A DNA stretch of 10,631 nt. Origin: Nostocaceae cyanobacterium. Lineage in GTDB: Bacteria > Cyanobacteriota > Cyanobacteriia > Cyanobacteriales > Nostocaceae. This document shows, one piece after another, positions 1 to 9,722 of the stretch (position 1 is the stretch's first letter; every line of letters starts with the position of its first letter). A program made the translations under genes and the position numbers. The notes beneath the pieces were generated by a model that saw only the letters and a program-made list of their open reading frames with translations, was not told the origin of the DNA and did no database searches. The DNA is taken from positions 1 to 10,631 of the forward strand of contig JBHYDF010000259.1 in assembly GCA_051861145.1 (NCBI GenBank), given 5' to 3'.

Positions 1-70
1 ATTGGGCATTGGGCATTGGGCATTGGGCATTGGGCATTGGGCATTGGGCATTGGGAATGGGGAATGGGGA
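1..70. repeat. Heptamer short tandem repeat: (ATTGGGC)x7, then ATTGGGA and ATGGGGAx2. Truncated by the window edge.
   Basis: Direct reading shows ten contiguous 7-nt units with perfect periodicity for the first seven. This is typical of cyanobacterial STRR arrays in intergenic DNA. Confidence 0.9.
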
Positions 71-1982: not shown

Positions 1983-4277
1983 ATGAAAGCCAAGCTATTT
2001 GTCAGTTTGCTAGTGAAAAGTGCAATGGTTCTCAGCAGCATTGCTATCGTCAGTCAGTCTATTGATTCAGTGAATCCTCGATTAAAAACTTTAGCAGTAG
2101 AACACACTCCATATCTGCAATCTAGTCAAACTCCAACTACTGCTGTATCACAACAAAATAATTCAGGAACTCTAAACCATCAGCCTATCAGGACTGCGGG
2201 AATATCGTTATCGTGGTCTTTTTTGATTTTCTTGGGATTTGGAATTATTGTTTTTGTTGCGATCGCGCCCAGAGGAATCGTAATAATTGGTAACAATGAA
2301 GTTGGGATTGTGATTAAGAAATTTAACCTTAATCCCTTTCACCCCAAACTCCCTGCTGGTAAACTGATGGCTTTGAAAGGAGAAGCCGGGCCCCAAGCGA
2401 AAATCCTTACCCCCGGTTTGCATTGGGGTTACTATCCTCAGATGTATATCATTCGCAAGGAATCGGTAATTAATATTTCTCCAGATGAAATTGGAATAGT
2501 CGTTGCCAAAGATGGTGCGTCCATGCCACCGGGACAACTTTTCGGTCAGGTTGTTGAATGTAACAACTTTCAGGATGCGTGTGCGTTTATTGAAAATGGC
2601 GGTCAGAAGGGTAGACAGCTAGCAATACTAACCGATGGCAGCTACCGGATTAACACTGAACTGTTTACCATTCACAAGAAGCCAGTCATCAATATTCCCC
2701 CAGGAGAAATTGGGCTAGTCGTTGCCAAAGATGGTGCGTCCATGCCACCAGAACAACTATTGGGCAAAGTTGTGGATTGCAATAACTTTCAAGATGCCCA
2801 TGCGTTTATTGAAAATGGCGGTCAGAAGGGTAGACAGCTAGCAATCTTAACTGCTGGTACGTATAAGATTAATACCGATTTGTTTACCGTAATTACTGCT
2901 GCTAATGCCACTAAGTATGGCATGAAACCTGAGGATTTGCAGGTATATACGGTGGATGCTGGTAACATTGGCATTATCACTACTTATGATGGTATATCAA
3001 TTGAACCAGGTGAGATTGCTGGTTCACCTGTTGGGGATCATGGTAACTTCCAAAATGGACAAAAATTTATTGATGCAGGTGGACGCAAAGGTTTGCAAGA
3101 AGAGGTTTTGCCACCAGGTTCTTGGAACCTCAATCCCTGGTTTCTTAAGGTTGAGCAAGTAGAACTGACTGAAATTCCCGTTGGTACAGTTGGGGTTGTC
3201 ATCTCCCACGTTGGCAAGCATTCTGAGAATCAGGCAGGTGTAGTTGAGCGTGGATGCAAGGGAGTTTGGAATACCCCTTTGCGTCCTGGTAAACACGTAA
3301 TTAACACAAAAGTGATGAATGTGGAGATAGTTCCAACTCTTCCCATTACACTCGACTGGTCAAACAAAACAAAACCTCCTACAAACTACGATGCCAACCT
3401 TCATGCTTTACAACTGCGTTCCAAGGATGGATTTTGTTTTGATATAGAGGTAACACAAGTTATTCGCATCGCTGAAGAAAACGCTCCCACAATGATTTTT
3501 CATGTTGGTAACACGATTAGTGGCTCTGCTACTAATTCCATAAAAGCTCTAACCGTTAAGGTACTACAGCCAGCAGTTAGCAATTACTTTTGTAATTCTG
3601 CCCAAAATTCTAAGGCGCTAGACTTTCTTGACAAACGTAGTGACCAACAAAGACAAGCAAAAGATTATATTAAATCAGCGCTCAATGATTTTGCTGTTGA
3701 AGCAGTTGAGACGTTGATTGGTGAGATTGACTTGCCTGAGGAGCTAGAAAAGATTTTAACCGAGTGCGAAATTGCTGAACAACAACGCAAAACCTTAGAC
3801 GCTCAACAAAAGACAGAAGCAAAACGCCAAGAACTTGCCCATGCAAAAGCACTGACAAACATTCAAGCAGATTTGGTGAAATTTGAACAGGGTGTGAGGA
3901 TTGCCGAACTCATGGCTCTAGCACAAAGATACGAAACAGAAGCTAAAACAGAACTAGCTCGAGAACAAGGTAAAGTGCAAGCAGAAATTCTCCGAGCATT
4001 TGTTGATATCCTTGGTCGTGAAGATTATGTGGATATAGAAAAACTTAAAGAGTTAGTCAAACTTAAACTTCCAGAAATTTGGGTGAGTAATTCTCATAGC
4101 AACGATTCTGGATTAGTAGATGCAATAATGGCTCCAATGTTAAGGACTCTGAAAACTAGTAGCATGAGTTCAATTAATAATTTACCAGGAACACATCAGG
4201 CTAATAAAACATTAGATACTTCATCTCCTTCATCTCCATCGACGGCACTTCCTCAAACTTATGAGGATAATTCCTGA
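1983..4277 (+). CDS. Flotillin/SPFH (band-7)-like membrane protein with four N-terminal tandem beta-hairpin repeat units and a C-terminal Glu/Ala/Lys-rich coiled coil.
   Basis: N-terminal hydrophobic segment MKAKLFVSLLVKSAMVLSSIAIV, then a transmembrane helix SWSFLIFLGFGIIVFVAIA. Four repeat units of ~65-73 aa follow, each with motifs G-x-IG-I/V-V and GGQKG-x-Q-x-x-IL-x-G-x-Y-x-IN. These resemble the first strands of YqiK/flotillin SPFH domains. An SPFH-like core follows (LDFLDKRSDQQRQAKDYIKSALNDFAVEAVETLIGEIDLPEEL), then a flotillin-type coiled coil (EQQRKTLDAQQKTEAKRQELAHAKAL...ETEAKTELAREQGKVQAEILRAF). The Ser/Pro-rich tail is low-complexity. Confidence 0.6.
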   Translation: MKAKLFVSLLVKSAMVLSSIAIVSQSIDSVNPRLKTLAVEHTPYLQSSQTPTTAVSQQNNSGTLNHQPIRTAGISLSWSFLIFLGFGIIVFVAIAPRGIVIIGNNEVGIVIKKFNLNPFHPKLPAGKLMALKGEAGPQAKILTPGLHWGYYPQMYIIRKESVINISPDEIGIVVAKDGASMPPGQLFGQVVECNNFQDACAFIENGGQKGRQLAILTDGSYRINTELFTIHKKPVINIPPGEIGLVVAKDGASMPPEQLLGKVVDCNNFQDAHAFIENGGQKGRQLAILTAGTYKINTDLFTVITAANATKYGMKPEDLQVYTVDAGNIGIITTYDGISIEPGEIAGSPVGDHGNFQNGQKFIDAGGRKGLQEEVLPPGSWNLNPWFLKVEQVELTEIPVGTVGVVISHVGKHSENQAGVVERGCKGVWNTPLRPGKHVINTKVMNVEIVPTLPITLDWSNKTKPPTNYDANLHALQLRSKDGFCFDIEVTQVIRIAEENAPTMIFHVGNTISGSATNSIKALTVKVLQPAVSNYFCNSAQNSKALDFLDKRSDQQRQAKDYIKSALNDFAVEAVETLIGEIDLPEELEKILTECEIAEQQRKTLDAQQKTEAKRQELAHAKALTNIQADLVKFEQGVRIAELMALAQRYETEAKTELAREQGKVQAEILRAFVDILGREDYVDIEKLKELVKLKLPEIWVSNSHSNDSGLVDAIMAPMLRTLKTSSMSSINNLPGTHQANKTLDTSSPSSPSTALPQTYEDNS
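2472..2909 (+). repeat. In-gene tandem duplication of a 219-bp (73-aa) unit, two copies at ~85% nucleotide identity.
   Basis: Copy 1 is 2472-2690 (INISPDEIGIVVAKDGASMPPGQLFGQVVECNNFQDACAFIENGGQKGRQLAILTDGSYRINTELFTIHKKPV). Copy 2 starts at 2691 (INIPPGEIGLVVAKDGASMPPEQLLGKVVDCNNFQDAHAFIENGGQKGRQLAILTAGTYKINTDLFTV...). Long identical runs occur at the DNA level, for example GTCGTTGCCAAAGATGGTGCGTCCATGCCACC and TTTATTGAAAATGGCGGTCAGAAGGGTAGACAGCTAGCAAT. Confidence 0.9.
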
Positions 4278-5890: not shown

Positions 5891-6116
5891 CTTGTCATGT
5901 TGCATAAAATCAAATTTTTGTCAATAGATATACTAGACAAATACCAAATAACCAATAACATTTAAATGTTGAAAGATAAAAAATTCTGGGAATACTAAAT
6001 AATGCTGAGGTGCAAGCGCTTCTCAGTAAAGTGTATTTGAGGCAGTCGCACCATAAAGGGAAAGCACCTTTGTGGGCGTTTGCATAGGCGGGAAACTTTA
6101 CAAAAAGACTTGGGTT

Positions 6117-8972
6117 ATGAACAACAAGGACAAGACAACAGACAATTGTCCACAAACGCAGCAACAAGGAAACTTTTCTACTGAGTTTTTACTCCAGATA
6201 ATTAATGCTACATCTGACCCGATTTTTGTCAAAGACCGCCAACACCGTTGGGTAATGCTTAATGATGCCTTCTGTTGCTTTATAGGGTATAGCCGAAAAG
6301 AATTAATTGGCAAGTCAGATTATGACTTCTTCCCAAAGGCAGAAGCTGATATGTTTTGGGAAAAAGATGAATTGGTTTTCACCACAGGCATTACTAATGA
6401 AAATGAAGAATTTTTTACCGATGCTCAAGGGGAAAAAACCGTCATATCTACCAAAAAATACTTATTGACGGATGAGTTTGGTAATCAATTTCTCGTGGGA
6501 ACTATTCGAGATATACAAGCCGAAACAGCTTTGAAAAATAGTGAAAGAAAGTATCGCGACCTGGTTGAAACTTCCCAAGATTTGATTTGGTCTATAGATA
6601 AATCAGGATACTTGACCTTTGTCAATCAGGCAGTCAAAAATATTTACGGTTATGAACCAGAGGAATTAATTGGTCAGCACATTAGTAAGTTAGAGTTACC
6701 TGAACAAATTCAGCAACATAAAGAATATTTTCAACAATTTGTAGTAGCAGAGAGCGTATTTCATTACGAAGCAATTCATCTTGCGAAGGATGGTAGACAA
6801 CTGAATATGTTGTTCAATGGCATAATACAACGGGACGAAGCCGGAAATATTTTAGGTACAACAGGCACAGCTACTAACATTACAGAACGCAAACAAGCAG
6901 AGGCAGAACTTAAGGCTTCGCAAAAAAGACTAGCACTATTGATTGAACAAACACCTTTATGTGTAATTGAATGGAATACCAAATTTGAGATTCAGGAATG
7001 GAATCCTGCGGCTGAAAGAATATTTGGATATAGCAAAGATGAAGTGCTGGGTCGTACTTTTGATTTTATCGTTCCTGAAAGTGCTAAAGAACAAGTCAAA
7101 CAGGTAAGCATTGATTTGCTAACACAACAAGGAGGAAATATAAGTGTAAACTATAACAGAACTAAAGATGCTAGAACGATTATTTGTGAATGGCACAATA
7201 GCCCATTAGTAGACGTTGATGGACAACTAATTGGTGTTGTTTCCATGATGCTTGACATCACAGAGCGCAAGCAAGCAGAAGAAAAACTGCAAAAACAAGA
7301 GCAATTCCTTCGCACTGTCTTTGACGGAACAGAAAATCCCATATTTGTCTTTGATGTTCTAGAAAATGGTGAATTTCGTTATGTTGGTTGGAACGCGGCG
7401 GCTGAAAGAGCCACGGGTATAAGTAGTAAACAAGTAATTGGTAATACACAAGAGTTTGTACATGGTGGAAATGAATTTACACCAGCACGTCAGAGCTTGA
7501 TAAAATGTCTAGAAACAGGTAAATCTATAACCTACGAAGAGTATTTTACTTTCCAAGGGCAACAAAGTTGGTGGCTTACGACAATTAATCCTCTCAAAGA
7601 TATTGAGGGCAGAATTTATCGCATAGTTGCTACTACCTTTAATATTAGCGATCGCAAAAGGGTAGAAGAACAGTTACAACAGCAAGAGCAATTTTTACGC
7701 AGTATTTACGATGGTGTAGAGCAACTGATATTTGTAGTTGATGTCCTGGAAAATGGAGATTTTTGTTATGCTGGTTGGAACTCTCCTACAGAAAATTTAA
7801 CAGGCATCAGTGGCACCGAGGTAGTGGGTAAATCTCCAGAGGATGTACATGGTGAGGTACAAGCAAAAGACATACGTGAGAAATATACAAGATGCGTAGC
7901 AACAGCTAAATCCTTCACCTTTGAAGAATACCTAAATTTCCAAGGTCAAGAAATTTGGTTGCTGACTACGCTTAATCCTTTAAAAGATGATTTGGGTAAA
8001 GTCTATCGCATTGTTGGTACAACCTTTGATATTAGCGATCGCAAAAGGGCAGAAATTAAGTTAAAACAGCAAACACAAAACCTAGAAAAAGCACTGCAAG
8101 AACTGCAACAGGCACAATTGCAACTGATCCAAAGTGAAAAAATGTCTAGTTTGGGTCAATTAGTAGCAGGTGTTGCCCATGAAATTAATAACCCTACAAG
8201 TTTCATCTTTGGTAATCTCGCCTACGCCGATCAATACATCAAAGATTTACTAGGACTGCTACAACTTTACCAGCAATATTATCCCAATCCTGTACCAGAA
8301 ATACAAGCACAAATAAAAGCCATTGACCTAGATTTCTTAATAGAAGACTTGCCGAAACTGCTTAACTCCATGAAGATGGGAACAGAACGTATTCGCCAAA
8401 TAGTGCTTTCGTTGCGAACTTTTTCCCGCATGGATGAAGCCGAGACGAAAGCGGTAAATATCCATGAGGGTATTGATAGTACACTGATGATTTTAGAACA
8501 TCGACTCAAAGACCAAGGCGATCGCAGAGCGATCGAGGTGATTAAAGAATACGGTAACTTACCTCTAGTGGAGTGCTACGCCGGACAACTCAATCAAGTG
8601 TTTATGAATATTCTGGCAAATGCTATTGATGCTTTTGATGAGTCATTAGTCATTGGTCATTCGTCATTGGTACAGGACAAAGGACAAATGACTAATGACA
8701 AAGGACAAATTCACATTCGCACAGAGGTAATTGAGCCAAATCAAGTATCAATTCGTATTGCTGACAATGGACCAGGAATACCAGAGGAAGTAAAGCAACG
8801 TCTATTTGACCCCTTCTTTACTACTAAATCTGTCGGTAAAGGTACGGGGATGGGGCTTTCTATTAGCTACCAAATTATTACGGAAAAACATGGTGGCTCT
8901 TTGGAATGTATTTCCCAGTTAGGAAGCGGTGCTGAATTTGTAATCACTATCCCTTTGCGGCAACAAAAATAA
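6117..8972 (+). CDS. Multi-PAS sensor histidine kinase with 4 PAS/PAC modules, a HisKA domain and a HATPase_c domain, and no transmembrane segment.
   Basis: PAS modules recur with a 126-129 aa period. Each ends with the linker I-T/S-E/D-RK-Q/R-AE, found at nucleotides 6879, 7257, 7644 and 8031. The H-box is SEKMSSLGQLVAGVAHEINNPTSF, the N-box NQVFMNILANAIDAF, the G1 box IADNGPGIP and the G2 box GKGTGMGLSISYQII. The ORF track start GTG 6072 gives an odd MGVCIGG leader. The ATG at 6117 (MNNKDKTT) is preferred. Confidence 0.85.
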   Translation: MNNKDKTTDNCPQTQQQGNFSTEFLLQIINATSDPIFVKDRQHRWVMLNDAFCCFIGYSRKELIGKSDYDFFPKAEADMFWEKDELVFTTGITNENEEFFTDAQGEKTVISTKKYLLTDEFGNQFLVGTIRDIQAETALKNSERKYRDLVETSQDLIWSIDKSGYLTFVNQAVKNIYGYEPEELIGQHISKLELPEQIQQHKEYFQQFVVAESVFHYEAIHLAKDGRQLNMLFNGIIQRDEAGNILGTTGTATNITERKQAEAELKASQKRLALLIEQTPLCVIEWNTKFEIQEWNPAAERIFGYSKDEVLGRTFDFIVPESAKEQVKQVSIDLLTQQGGNISVNYNRTKDARTIICEWHNSPLVDVDGQLIGVVSMMLDITERKQAEEKLQKQEQFLRTVFDGTENPIFVFDVLENGEFRYVGWNAAAERATGISSKQVIGNTQEFVHGGNEFTPARQSLIKCLETGKSITYEEYFTFQGQQSWWLTTINPLKDIEGRIYRIVATTFNISDRKRVEEQLQQQEQFLRSIYDGVEQLIFVVDVLENGDFCYAGWNSPTENLTGISGTEVVGKSPEDVHGEVQAKDIREKYTRCVATAKSFTFEEYLNFQGQEIWLLTTLNPLKDDLGKVYRIVGTTFDISDRKRAEIKLKQQTQNLEKALQELQQAQLQLIQSEKMSSLGQLVAGVAHEINNPTSFIFGNLAYADQYIKDLLGLLQLYQQYYPNPVPEIQAQIKAIDLDFLIEDLPKLLNSMKMGTERIRQIVLSLRTFSRMDEAETKAVNIHEGIDSTLMILEHRLKDQGDRRAIEVIKEYGNLPLVECYAGQLNQVFMNILANAIDAFDESLVIGHSSLVQDKGQMTNDKGQIHIRTEVIEPNQVSIRIADNGPGIPEEVKQRLFDPFFTTKSVGKGTGMGLSISYQIITEKHGGSLECISQLGSGAEFVITIPLRQQK
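8642..8710 (+). repeat. In-frame heptamer repeats inside the histidine-kinase CDS: (GTCATTN)x4, a 6-nt spacer, then (GACAAAK/GACTAAT)x5.
   Basis: Units GTCATTA, GTCATTG, GTCATTC and GTCATTG lie at 8642-8669. After the spacer GTACAG come GACAAAG, GACAAAT, GACTAAT, GACAAAG and GACAAAT at 8676-8710. The 69 nt encode LVIGHSSLVQDKGQMTNDKGQI, which sits between the N-box and G1 box of the HATPase domain. Both unit families match the 5' intergenic STRRs at 1-112. Confidence 0.85.
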
Positions 8973-9395: not shown

Positions 9396-9722
9396 ATGAG
9401 CCAATCTGTACAAGTCATTCAACCAAGCGGAATTTTAGATGCAACAAAATCACAAGAGTTTCGGCAAAAAATTACTGATACTCTAGAAACTGGTACAAAA
9501 ATTGTATTAGTGGATTTTAAAGATGTAACATTTATGGATAGTTCTGGTTTAGGCGCTCTAGTGTTAGCTTTCAAAACACTGCGAGCAGCTGATAGTAAGT
9601 TGTTTGTCTGTTCAATTAATGAGCAAGTCAGGATATTATTTGAATTGACTGGTATGGATAAGATATTTGATATTTTCCCCAATCAAGAAGAATTTAATCA
9701 AGCTGTAAATAGTTTGAAATAA
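9396..9722 (+). CDS. STAS-domain anti-sigma-factor antagonist (SpoIIAA/RsbV-like), single domain, 108 aa.
   Basis: ATG start. The canonical motif FMDSSGLGALV carries the phosphorylatable Ser of the DSSG motif. The overall fold signature (VLVDFKDVTFMDSSGLGALVLAFKTLRAADSKLFVCSINEQVRILFELTGMDKIF) matches anti-anti-sigma factors. Confidence 0.85.
   Translation: MSQSVQVIQPSGILDATKSQEFRQKITDTLETGTKIVLVDFKDVTFMDSSGLGALVLAFKTLRAADSKLFVCSINEQVRILFELTGMDKIFDIFPNQEEFNQAVNSLK

What the first reader, a model, noticed from the sequence alone, without database searches (positions are those of the whole stretch)
8642..8710. The same two heptamer STRR families found upstream of the first kinase gene recur, in the same order and in-frame, inside the ATP-binding domain of the sensor histidine kinase.
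Seen directly in the sequence. The 5' non-coding block (1-112) reads (CATTGGG)n, a short spacer, then (GACAAAT)n. At 8642-8710 the histidine-kinase reading frame carries (CATTNGT)x4, a 6-nt spacer, then (GACAAAK)x5. These are the same two motifs in the same order. They encode an extra ~20-aa loop (LVIGHSSLVQDKGQMTNDKGQI) between the N-box and G1 box of HATPase_c. Heptamer STRRs are normally intergenic in heterocystous cyanobacteria, so a composite STRR embedded in a catalytic domain is unusual. This leads to two inferences. First, the block looks like an inserted or duplicated repeat module rather than ancestral protein sequence. Second, slipped-strand gain or loss of one 7-nt unit would frameshift upstream of the G1 and G2 boxes. 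That would yield a kinase-dead PAS-DHp protein, which is a candidate phase-variation switch. Only changes of three units (21 nt) preserve the frame.
Basis: partly seen in the sequence, partly recalled or inferred. Interest (0 to 1): 0.8.

Follow-up and report, generated by a model that had tools for sequence, protein, structure and literature searches.

The report
In-frame heptamer-repeat hairpin in kinase loop
A cyanobacterial sensor kinase gene carries, in frame, a small hairpin made of 7-base repeats that encodes a surface loop; relatives carry similar or different repeats at the same spot, so it looks like a tolerated hotspot for repeat DNA, and nothing found here supports an on/off switch.

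Summary
The repeats are real. Bases 8642-8669 are (GTCATTN)x4, then GTACAG, then 8676-8710 is (GACAAAK/GACTAAT)x5. They lie in frame in a 5xPAS histidine kinase, between the N box and the G1 box.

Together they form an imperfect 30-nt-arm hairpin (80% complementary; RNA fold z = -5.5).

The block is not a copy of the upstream block at 1-112. It shares GACAAAT with that block, but CATTGGG differs from GTCATTN, and the upstream block is not an inverted repeat.

It is not unique to this gene. The closest relative (Fischerella, also followed by a STAS gene) and two other gene groups have the same four-unit left arm at the same codons.

In one Nostoc orthologue group (82-92% identical outside the loop), the loop holds at least five architectures. 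These include G-rich heptamer hairpins and a clean 24-nt mini-element insertion.

The loop length (N box to G1 = 56 aa) is near the family median of 54.

The model puts the left arm in an extension of the N-box helix and the right arm in a low-confidence coil.

Phase variation is not supported: the units are impure (longest exact 7-nt-offset run is 8 nt), and an exact 14-nt repeat 21 nt apart favours in-frame change.

Best reading: an in-frame repeat hairpin, shared with relatives, sitting in a hypervariable loop.

The parts
8642..8669 (+). Left arm: (GTCATTN)x4 = GTCATTA GTCATTG GTCATTC GTCATTG. It encodes (E)SLVIGHSSL. GTCATTG is a rotation of TTGGTCA.
   Evidence: The same four units sit at the same codons in L201-L206.
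8670..8675 (+). GTACAG, the tip of the hairpin (codons V-Q)
8676..8710 (+). Right arm: GACAAAG GACAAAT GACTAAT GACAAAG GACAAAT. It is the reverse complement of the left-arm family and encodes DKGQMTNDKGQI.
8642..8706 (.). Imperfect inverted repeat (hairpin): 30-nt arms 8642-8671 and 8677-8706, 80% complementary, 5 nt between them
   Evidence: RNA MFE -29.4 kcal/mol, z = -5.46, 0 of 200 shuffles as stable. DNA z = -4.14.
8676..8710 (+). Exact 14-nt direct repeat GACAAAGGACAAAT at 8676-8689 and 8697-8710, 21 nt apart (DKGQMTN/DKGQ). This is a likely in-frame 21-nt duplication.
8595..8639 (+). N-box helix coding sequence (QVFMNILANAIDAFD), immediately upstream of the repeat
8763..8780 (+). G1 box (DNGPGI)
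6117..8972 (+). Host gene: sensor histidine kinase with five PAS domains, DHp (HEINNP) and HATPase_c; 951 aa
1..112 (+). Upstream non-coding heptamer block: (ATTGGGC)x7.9 cut off by the contig end, (GGGAATG)x2.7, a spacer, then (AATGACA)x5. It is related to the kinase block only through the second family and is not an inverted repeat.
9396..9722 (+). STAS-domain gene downstream. The same gene follows the Fischerella relative, so it serves as a synteny marker.

Best explanation
The block is a short-tandem-repeat (STRR-type) heptamer hairpin lying in frame in the loop that follows the N-box helix of the kinase's ATP-binding domain.

Shown:
- It is repeat DNA. Its two arms are reverse complements.
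- Relatives carry the same left arm at the same codons.
- The loop is the one hypervariable segment in an otherwise highly conserved domain.
- In related genes this same loop holds other heptamer hairpins and small stem-loop insertions, always in frame.

Inferred:
- The loop is a structurally permissive surface site. The left arm is read as two extra turns of the N-box helix and the right arm as a flexible coil.
- Repeat DNA that arises or lands there is therefore tolerated. Selection then passes only frame-preserving changes, such as the apparent 21-nt duplication here.
- The conserved codons GAG TCA TTx GTC (E-S-L/F-V) already contain 1.6 units of the heptamer. They may seed the array by slippage, or they may be what remains after its collapse.
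- The hairpin is a passenger that has become part of the protein, not a switch.
For: Repeat nature:
- Arrays and hairpin.
- Periodicity exceeds all 1000 synonymous recodings, and the hairpin energy is matched or beaten by only 5 of 1000.

Shared with relatives:
- The left arm GAGTCATTxGTCATTxxTCATTxGTCATTxGxA has 4 units in the same frame in the window, in L202 (Fischerella, with a STAS gene downstream), in L204 and in Nostoc L201, L203, L205 and L206.

Hypervariable loop:
- N-box-to-G1 spacing ranges from 43 to 90 aa, while the DHp/CA region is 62-78% identical across the family.

Turnover:
- Nostoc VWA-HK-Obg orthologues are 82-92% identical outside the loop. Their loops include GTCATTN-type hairpins, G-rich/CCCAATG-type hairpins, VICP...WENA stem-loop forms and nested inserts.
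- L210 against L203 is a clean filled/empty site for a 25-nt element, net +24 nt.
- L204 (long loop) and L209 (short loop) share the same upstream neighbour.

Site specificity:
- In the 80 loci chosen only by kinase homology, all three in-ORF period-7 arrays within the kinase genes fall in this loop.

Structure:
- The model has a helix at residues 175-202 that runs through ESLVIGHS, a coil at 203-215 with pLDDT below 50, and a strand from residue 216.

Generality:
- In-frame heptamer arrays also split a MiaA/IPPT domain and an EAL domain in other contigs.

No regulatory signal:
- No terminator-like site and no Rfam match was found at the block.
Against: - Codons of the left arm are more conserved at synonymous sites than the flanks: 5 of 6 against 48 of 162 across four lineages, P about 0.01. 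Pairwise values are 7/8 to 9/9 against 0.46-0.62. Pure passive tolerance does not predict this. It suggests DNA-level maintenance, repeated regeneration or selection on the motif.
- Tolerance alone does not explain why no other loop of these roughly 1000-aa proteins collects repeats.
- The direction of change (gain from a seed or loss to a remnant) is unresolved.
- The structural placement rests on one AlphaFold model of moderate confidence (mean pLDDT 77). I could not measure distances to the ATP site.
- No functional data exist.
Confidence: 0.68

Rival explanations
1. Phase-variation switch. Slipped-strand gain or loss of one 7-nt unit frameshifts the gene and produces a kinase-dead PAS-DHp protein, reversibly.
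For: - The unit length is not a multiple of three.
- Simulated +/-7 and +/-14 changes all stop within the right arm, giving 854-861 aa products without G1/G2.
- Loop length differs between orthologues, so indels do occur here over evolutionary time.
Against: - There are only 4 and 5 units and they are impure. The longest exact run at a 7-nt offset is 8 nt, whereas an exact 14-nt repeat lies 21 nt apart and favours in-frame change.
- The left arm has 4 units in all seven type-A sequences.
- Length differences among Nostoc orthologues are 6, 9 or 24 nt and similar, not 7n.
- No relative is frameshifted inside an array. P0035 is broken upstream of the loop.
- From my own knowledge, contingency loci rely on long pure tracts.
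Confidence: 0.05
2. Recent insertion or duplication of a composite repeat module: the same module as at 1-112 has been copied into the kinase gene.
For: - The GACAAAT family occurs in both blocks, and in both a CATT-containing array comes first.
- Hairpins of the same two arms are common elsewhere: at least 120 metagenome contigs carry them.
- Small elements do insert into this loop in relatives.
Against: - The first families differ (CATTGGG against GTCATTN).
- The upstream block is not an inverted repeat.
- No CATTGGG+GACAAAT composite was found in about 1 Mb of fetched loci.
- The same left arm sits at the same codons in relatives only 57-77% identical to this protein. Either it predates these splits or it arose independently in each lineage.
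Confidence: 0.1
3. The hairpin or heptamer motif works at the DNA or RNA level and is kept by selection. Possible roles are a processing site, a translational pause, a protein-binding site or a recombination site.
For: - The fold is stable and non-random.
- Hairpins also form in L201, L203 and L205-L208.
- There is excess synonymous conservation of the left arm.
- A preprint proposes that intergenic heptamer repeats influence expression in Nostoc 7120 (bioRxiv 10.1101/2022.06.06.494920).
Against: - The hairpin is not conserved. The right arm has decayed in the closest relative L202 (-11.7 kcal/mol) and in L204 (-9.4) while the left arm persists.
- Orthologues replace it with unrelated sequences.
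- There is no terminator-like site and no Rfam family at the block.
- The synonymous-site signal rests on 6 codons.
Confidence: 0.12
4. The encoded peptide is a selected functional loop, for example a helix extension or a docking surface, and the repeat is only its historical origin.
For: - ES[LF]VIxH[LS]SL is conserved across lineages.
- It is modelled as a continuation of the N-box helix.
Against: - Close orthologues in Nostoc dispense with it entirely.
- Protein-level selection does not explain identical synonymous codons or periodicity beyond every recoding.
Confidence: 0.1

Closest known systems
STRR heptamer repeats of heterocystous cyanobacteria (Mazel et al. 1990, J Bacteriol 172:2755; recalled from memory, including STRR2 = TTGGTCA)
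   Same: - Tandem 7-nt units.
- GTCATTG is a rotation of TTGGTCA.
- GAC(C/T)AAT x8, the reverse complement of GTCATTR, is reported upstream of recO in Nostoc 7120.
- The host is Nostocales-like.
   Different: - It lies inside a coding sequence and in frame, whereas heptamer repeats are reported as mainly intergenic and under-represented in coding regions (PMC4692102).
- In my scan only 1 of 141 places with this hairpin pattern lay in a long open frame.
- It is arranged as an inverted pair.
Rickettsia palindromic elements and other repeats fused in frame into genes (Ogata et al. 2000, as reviewed in PMC10969869 and PMC3184786)
   Same: - A palindromic repeat inserted in frame in an enzyme-coding gene.
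- Placed where the fold tolerates it.
- Present or absent between orthologues.
- The same kind of element is abundant outside genes.
   Different: - It is much smaller (69 nt against about 100-150 nt).
- It is built from tandem heptamers of variable number rather than a fixed-length element.
- It recurs at one site of one paralogous family.
- No transposition features were seen.
Small dispersed repeats (SDR, 21-27 nt) of Nostoc, often embedded in heptamer arrays (Elhai et al. 2008, Genome Res 18:1484; abstract recalled from memory, paper not held)
   Same: In relatives, stem-loop elements of about 25 nt sit inside the heptamer arms of this very loop (L210 against L203; L205, L206 and L208).
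   Different: - The window's own block has no such nested element.
- I could not check whether that paper already describes coding-region or kinase cases.
Simple-sequence contingency loci (phase variation by slipped-strand mispairing)
   Same: A repeat with a unit that is not a multiple of three lies inside an ORF, so a one-unit change would frameshift.
   Different: - The tract is short and impure.
- Copy number is constant in relatives.
- No frameshifted alleles were found.

Membership tests
STRR-type heptamer repeats | Tandem repeats with a 7-nt unit | tested here: met
   Period-7 arrays of 4.0 and 5.1 copies with 90% and 86% matches.
STRR-type heptamer repeats | Unit belongs to a recognised family (TTGGTCA / GAC(C/T)AAT) | tested here: met
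   Two of the four left units are GTCATTG, a rotation of TTGGTCA (consensus recalled from memory). GAC(C/T)AAT repeats are reported in Nostoc 7120. The AATGACC, AAATGAC and AATGACT classes are the commonest in the fetched loci, but that sample is biased.
STRR-type heptamer repeats | Host is a heterocystous cyanobacterium | tested here: inconclusive
   The best homologues are Tolypothrix, Halotia, Fischerella, Calothrix and Nostoc. GC is 39.7% and HIP1 sites are present. The source record is unnamed. The same hairpin pattern also occurs in high-GC contigs.
STRR-type heptamer repeats | Intergenic location | tested here: not met
   The block lies inside ORF 6117-8972, in frame.
Sensor histidine kinase (HATPase_c) | H box/DHp, N box, G1 and G2 boxes, and a GHKL fold | tested here: met
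   Pfam HATPase_c E = 7.6e-25 plus five PAS domains. HEINNP, NILANAID, DNGPGI and GKGTGMGL are present. The closest solved relative is CckA 5idj, E = 2.5e-25. The fold matches ZraS, YycG, CckA and HK853.
Phase-variable contingency locus | Long, pure repeat tract | tested here: not met
   4 and 5 impure units. The longest exact run at a 7-nt offset is 8 nt.
Phase-variable contingency locus | A one-unit change switches the reading frame | tested here: met
   Simulated +/-7 and +/-14 changes truncate the product at 854-861 aa.
Phase-variable contingency locus | Copy-number polymorphism between close strains or within populations | not testable with these tools
   The protein cluster has one member and the source genome is not among the species representatives. 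Across distant relatives the left arm is constant at 4 units.
In-frame palindromic repeat insertions (RPE-like) | Palindromic repeat whose copies are dispersed elsewhere | tested here: met
   Inverted repeat.
In-frame palindromic repeat insertions (RPE-like) | In frame in a gene, at a structurally permissive site | tested here: met
   In frame. The model places it at the end of a helix plus a low-confidence coil between the N-box helix and the next strand. This is a model only.
In-frame palindromic repeat insertions (RPE-like) | Filled and empty sites among orthologues | tested here: met
   L204 against L209 share the same upstream neighbour. The Nostoc orthologue group shows several states. 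This was shown for relatives, not for this gene's own close kin.
In-frame palindromic repeat insertions (RPE-like) | Fixed-length element with signs of transposition | tested here: not met
   Arm unit numbers vary from 3-15 (left) and 2-5 (right) among copies. No target duplication or terminal repeats were evident.

The most novel reading that the evidence does not exclude
The loop after the N-box helix in this family of Nostocales PAS kinases may be an active, site-specific hotspot. Heptamer hairpins and roughly 25-nt stem-loop mini-elements would be repeatedly gained, swapped and nested there in frame, and the heptamer would be maintained at the nucleotide level. Mechanisms could be targeted insertion, gene conversion between paralogues or with other repeat loci, or selection on the DNA/RNA motif. 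If so, a DNA-level process, not just protein tolerance, shapes a catalytic domain and diversifies paralogous kinases.
Probability: 0.3. Interest if true: 0.65.

Novelty: new variant of a known kind. Interest (0 to 1): 0.4.

Why it matters
Heptamer repeats are a signature of heterocyst-forming cyanobacteria, and their origin and function remain unsettled. This case shows them inside a conserved catalytic domain, at one recurrent site, with filled, empty and replaced states among orthologues. That makes it a natural system for asking how such repeats arise, spread and are tolerated. It also offers a possible route by which large families of paralogous sensor kinases diversify a surface loop.

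For annotation, it warns that 'low-complexity' loops in cyanobacterial proteins may be repeat DNA.

It does not currently support a regulatory switch.

Tried and rejected
- Rfam scan of the whole window: no family.
- Terminator and promoter scan around the block: nothing at the hairpin.
- Close relatives for copy-number comparison: none. The best non-self hits are 48-66% identical, the cluster has one member, and the genome-collection scan did not return the source genome.
- CATTGGG+GACAAAT composites in about 1 Mb of fetched loci: none.
- The statistic on adjacent array pairs (80 of 97 inverted) was dropped as evidence, because those loci were selected by a hairpin pattern.
- P0035, which lacks HATPase_c, was examined as a possible frameshifted allele. 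The break is about 15 codons upstream of the loop and not in an array.
- Literature: Elhai et al. 2008 could not be read. Searches for in-frame heptamer repeats in Anabaena or Nostoc kinases found nothing relevant.
- I considered a peptide search of the protein database for the same translated repeat in other families. I used the DNA-pattern scan plus the local ORF analysis instead.
- I could not measure distances in the model, because coordinates are not exposed.
Full report
**What is in the sequence**

Bases 8642-8710 read GTCATTA GTCATTG GTCATTC GTCATTG GTACAG GACAAAG GACAAAT GACTAAT GACAAAG GACAAAT. Tandem Repeats Finder calls two period-7 arrays: 8641-8668 (4.0 copies, 90% matches) and 8674-8709 (5.1 copies, 86%). 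It also calls arrays at 1-55, 53-71 and 78-112. Two-unit patterns of either family occur 12 and 14 times in the window, against 0.5 and 0.3 expected. None of 200 shuffles reached those counts.

The block lies in ORF 6072-8972. The database product starts at 6117 and is 951 aa. Pfam finds five PAS domains and HATPase_c. The block encodes SLVIGHSSLVQDKGQMTNDKGQI between the N box (nt 8607) and G1 (nt 8763).

The other genes in the window are a Ser/Thr kinase with a GUN4 domain, an SPFH protein, an FHA-Ser/Thr kinase and a STAS protein. The window is a whole 10,631-nt contig. It has 39.7% GC and contains HIP1 sites. Its best homologues are from Nostocales.

The two arrays are reverse complements of each other. 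The arms 8642-8671 and 8677-8706 are 80% complementary and lie 5 nt apart. As RNA the region folds at -29.4 kcal/mol (z = -5.46; 0 of 200 shuffles as stable). As DNA the z-score is -4.14.

The upstream block at 1-112 is not called an inverted repeat. Its first family is CATTGGG, not GTCATTN. 'Same two families, same order' is therefore only half right.

**The repeat is a DNA feature**

I recoded the same 24-aa peptide 1000 times using the window's codon usage. Lag-7 identity was 0.47 +/- 0.05 (maximum 0.646), against 0.738 observed. Only 5 of 1000 recodings folded as well as the real sequence.

**It is not unique to this gene**

- Among 116 relatives, N-box-to-G1 spacing runs from 43 to 90 aa with a median of 54. 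The query has 56.
- The closest relative is P0017 from Fischerella PCC 9605. It is 77% identical outside the loop and is also followed by a STAS gene. Its loop reads ESLVNSHLSLVDKKGQRTTPQI.
- At the DNA level, the window, L202 (Fischerella), L204 and Nostoc L201, L203, L205 and L206 all have GAG TCA TTx GTC AxT xxT CAT TxG TCA TTx G. That is four units at the same codons.
- The right arm varies. It has decayed in L202 and L204, where the folds are only -11.7 and -9.4 kcal/mol.

The first part holds, but the periodicity is present in the relatives too.

**The loop is a hotspot**

Five of the relatives looked up (P0057, P0062, P0085, P0094, P0103) and P0105 have an Obg gene downstream. Three of them (P0057, P0062, P0105) also show a VWA gene upstream, so I treat this set as one Nostoc orthologue group. 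Outside the loop they are 82-92% identical. Their loops are very different:
- GTCATTN-type hairpins;
- G-rich/CCCAATG-type hairpins (EGVGSGDEGD...NQCPMPNSQCPI);
- a short-armed form with an internal stem-loop (VICPIFWENARRVEQMTS);
- nested inserts.

L210 against L203 is a clean filled/empty pair. A 25-nt element, ACCCTGCGGGAAGGCGAAGCGCCTA, replaces one T inside the left arm, for a net gain of 24 nt that stays in frame.

L204 (long loop) and L209 (short loop, ESLVNGKIINNPQI) share the same upstream hydrolase gene.

Other paralogues from Nostoc linckia, Stigonema and Chlorogloeopsis carry yet other heptamer hairpins at this site. Homologues from outside Nostocales/Stigonematales mostly show no clear 7-nt periodicity, although a few (for example L017 and L079) show partial signals.

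In the 80 loci chosen only by kinase homology, the three in-ORF period-7 arrays within kinase genes all fall in this loop.

**How common the element is elsewhere**

I scanned metagenome contigs for GTCATTNGTCATTNGTCATT, a 3-33-nt gap, then AATGACNAATGAC. Of 141 places, only one lay in a frame open for at least 60 codons on both sides. The hairpin is therefore common but almost always intergenic.

Across about 1.05 Mb of fetched loci there were 316 period-7 arrays. Eighteen were in long open frames, and ten of those were at this kinase loop. This sample is biased by how the loci were chosen.

Two of the other hosts were checked against Pfam and are real proteins. A MiaA/IPPT domain and an EAL domain are each split in two by the insert. 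In-frame heptamer arrays are thus rare but occur in more than one protein family.

**Structure**

An AlphaFold2 model of the DHp-CA region was built with 42 sequences. Mean pLDDT is 77.4. It has a helix at residues 175-202 that continues through ESLVIGHS (the left arm). Residues 203-215 form a coil with pLDDT below 50 (the right arm). A strand begins at residue 216 (GQIHIRTEV). The fold matches solved histidine kinases. In the sequence, the insert ends about 18 residues (it begins about 41) before the G1 box, and the segment I take to be the ATP lid (residues ~241-263, low pLDDT at 259-262) lies after G1, so the insert is not next to it.

**Phase variation**

The arithmetic holds. Changes of +/-7 or +/-14 stop at a TGA in the right arm and give 854-861 aa products. 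Changes of +/-21 keep the frame. However:
- The longest exact run at a 7-nt offset is 8 nt, while an exact 14-nt repeat lies 21 nt apart.
- Left-arm copy number is fixed at 4 units in relatives.
- Loop length differences among orthologues are 6, 9 or 24 nt, not 7n.
- The one truncated relative is broken outside any array.

No population data exist for this strain.

**An unexplained point**

Left-arm codons are identical in four lineages at 5 of 6 amino-acid-invariant degenerate positions. In the flanks the figure is 48 of 162 (P about 0.01; pairwise values). This fits DNA-level maintenance, repeated regeneration from the genome's commonest repeat family, or selection on the motif. It keeps a more active reading alive.

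The conserved codons GAG TCA TTx GTC occur even in short-loop relatives. They contain 1.6 heptamer units. They could be a seed for slippage or a remnant of collapse, and the direction is unresolved.

**Comparison with what is known**

- Heptamer repeats are reported as abundant and mainly intergenic in Nostoc (PMC4692102; PMC4679880).
- GAC(C/T)AAT x8 lies upstream of recO in Nostoc 7120 (bioRxiv 10.1101/2022.06.06.494920).
- In-frame palindromic repeats in genes are known from Rickettsia and from other MITE-like elements, including Anabaena (PMC10969869; PMC3184786).
- Small 21-27-nt elements nested in heptamer arrays were described by Elhai et al. 2008. I recall this from memory because the paper is not held.
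- I found no report of a recurrent in-frame heptamer-hairpin site in a kinase ATP-binding domain.

**Verdict**

- The block is repeat DNA that has become part of a hypervariable loop.
- It is shared with relatives and is not a copy of the upstream block.
- A frameshift switch is unlikely.
- It is a new variant of a known kind, of moderate interest.

Noticed in passing
L210:3043-3067 against L203:3052-3162 (Nostoc orthologues): Clean filled/empty site. A 25-nt stem-loop element (ACCCTGCGGGAAGGCGAAGCGCCTA, net +24 nt, peptide HTLREGEAPM) sits inside the left heptamer arm, in frame. Other nested inserts at the same loop encode AQSLSRGFLRSELCKRG, ERSLSKGSELLRRETLREQR and YPAGRRSAY.
   Followed up: partly
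L081:267-355 and 394-454; L022:3430-3509: In-frame heptamer arrays split other conserved domains. An inverted pair, (GAGGATG)x12.7 and (ATCCTCT)x8.9, lies inside a MiaA/IPPT gene, and an array lies inside an EAL-domain gene. Pfam matches each domain in two stretches.
   Followed up: partly
L081-L200 (metagenome contigs): Contigs holding the same GTCATTN/NAATGAC hairpin have a median GC of 57% (range 30-69%), and only 41 of 120 contain HIP1. This heptamer hairpin is therefore not confined to low-GC Nostocales. The taxa were not identified.
   Followed up: no
window 8640-8672 and the same codons in L201-L206: Synonymous sites of the left arm are more conserved than those of the flanks: 5/6 against 48/162 across four lineages, P about 0.01. 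This is unexplained.
   Followed up: partly
window 2472-2888: A 219-nt tandem duplication (1.9 copies, 82% matches) lies inside the SPFH-domain gene 1983-4277. It amounts to 73 codons, so it stays in frame.
   Followed up: no
window 1-55: The (ATTGGGC) array runs into the contig end, so its true length is unknown. The assembly probably broke in the repeat.
   Followed up: no
P0035 (Amazonocrinis nigriterrae CENA67 homologue): The protein ends ...ECYPGQLTKYL about 15 codons before the loop and lacks HATPase_c. A 1-nt frameshift is the likely cause (inferred from the peptide only; its DNA was not fetched). It could be a pseudogene or a sequencing error, and the break is not in a heptamer array.
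   Followed up: partly
window 8519-8535: Two HIP1-like GCGATCG sites form a small inverted repeat (CGATCGCTCTGCGATCG) inside the kinase gene. It was picked up as a terminator-like site on the minus strand.
   Followed up: no
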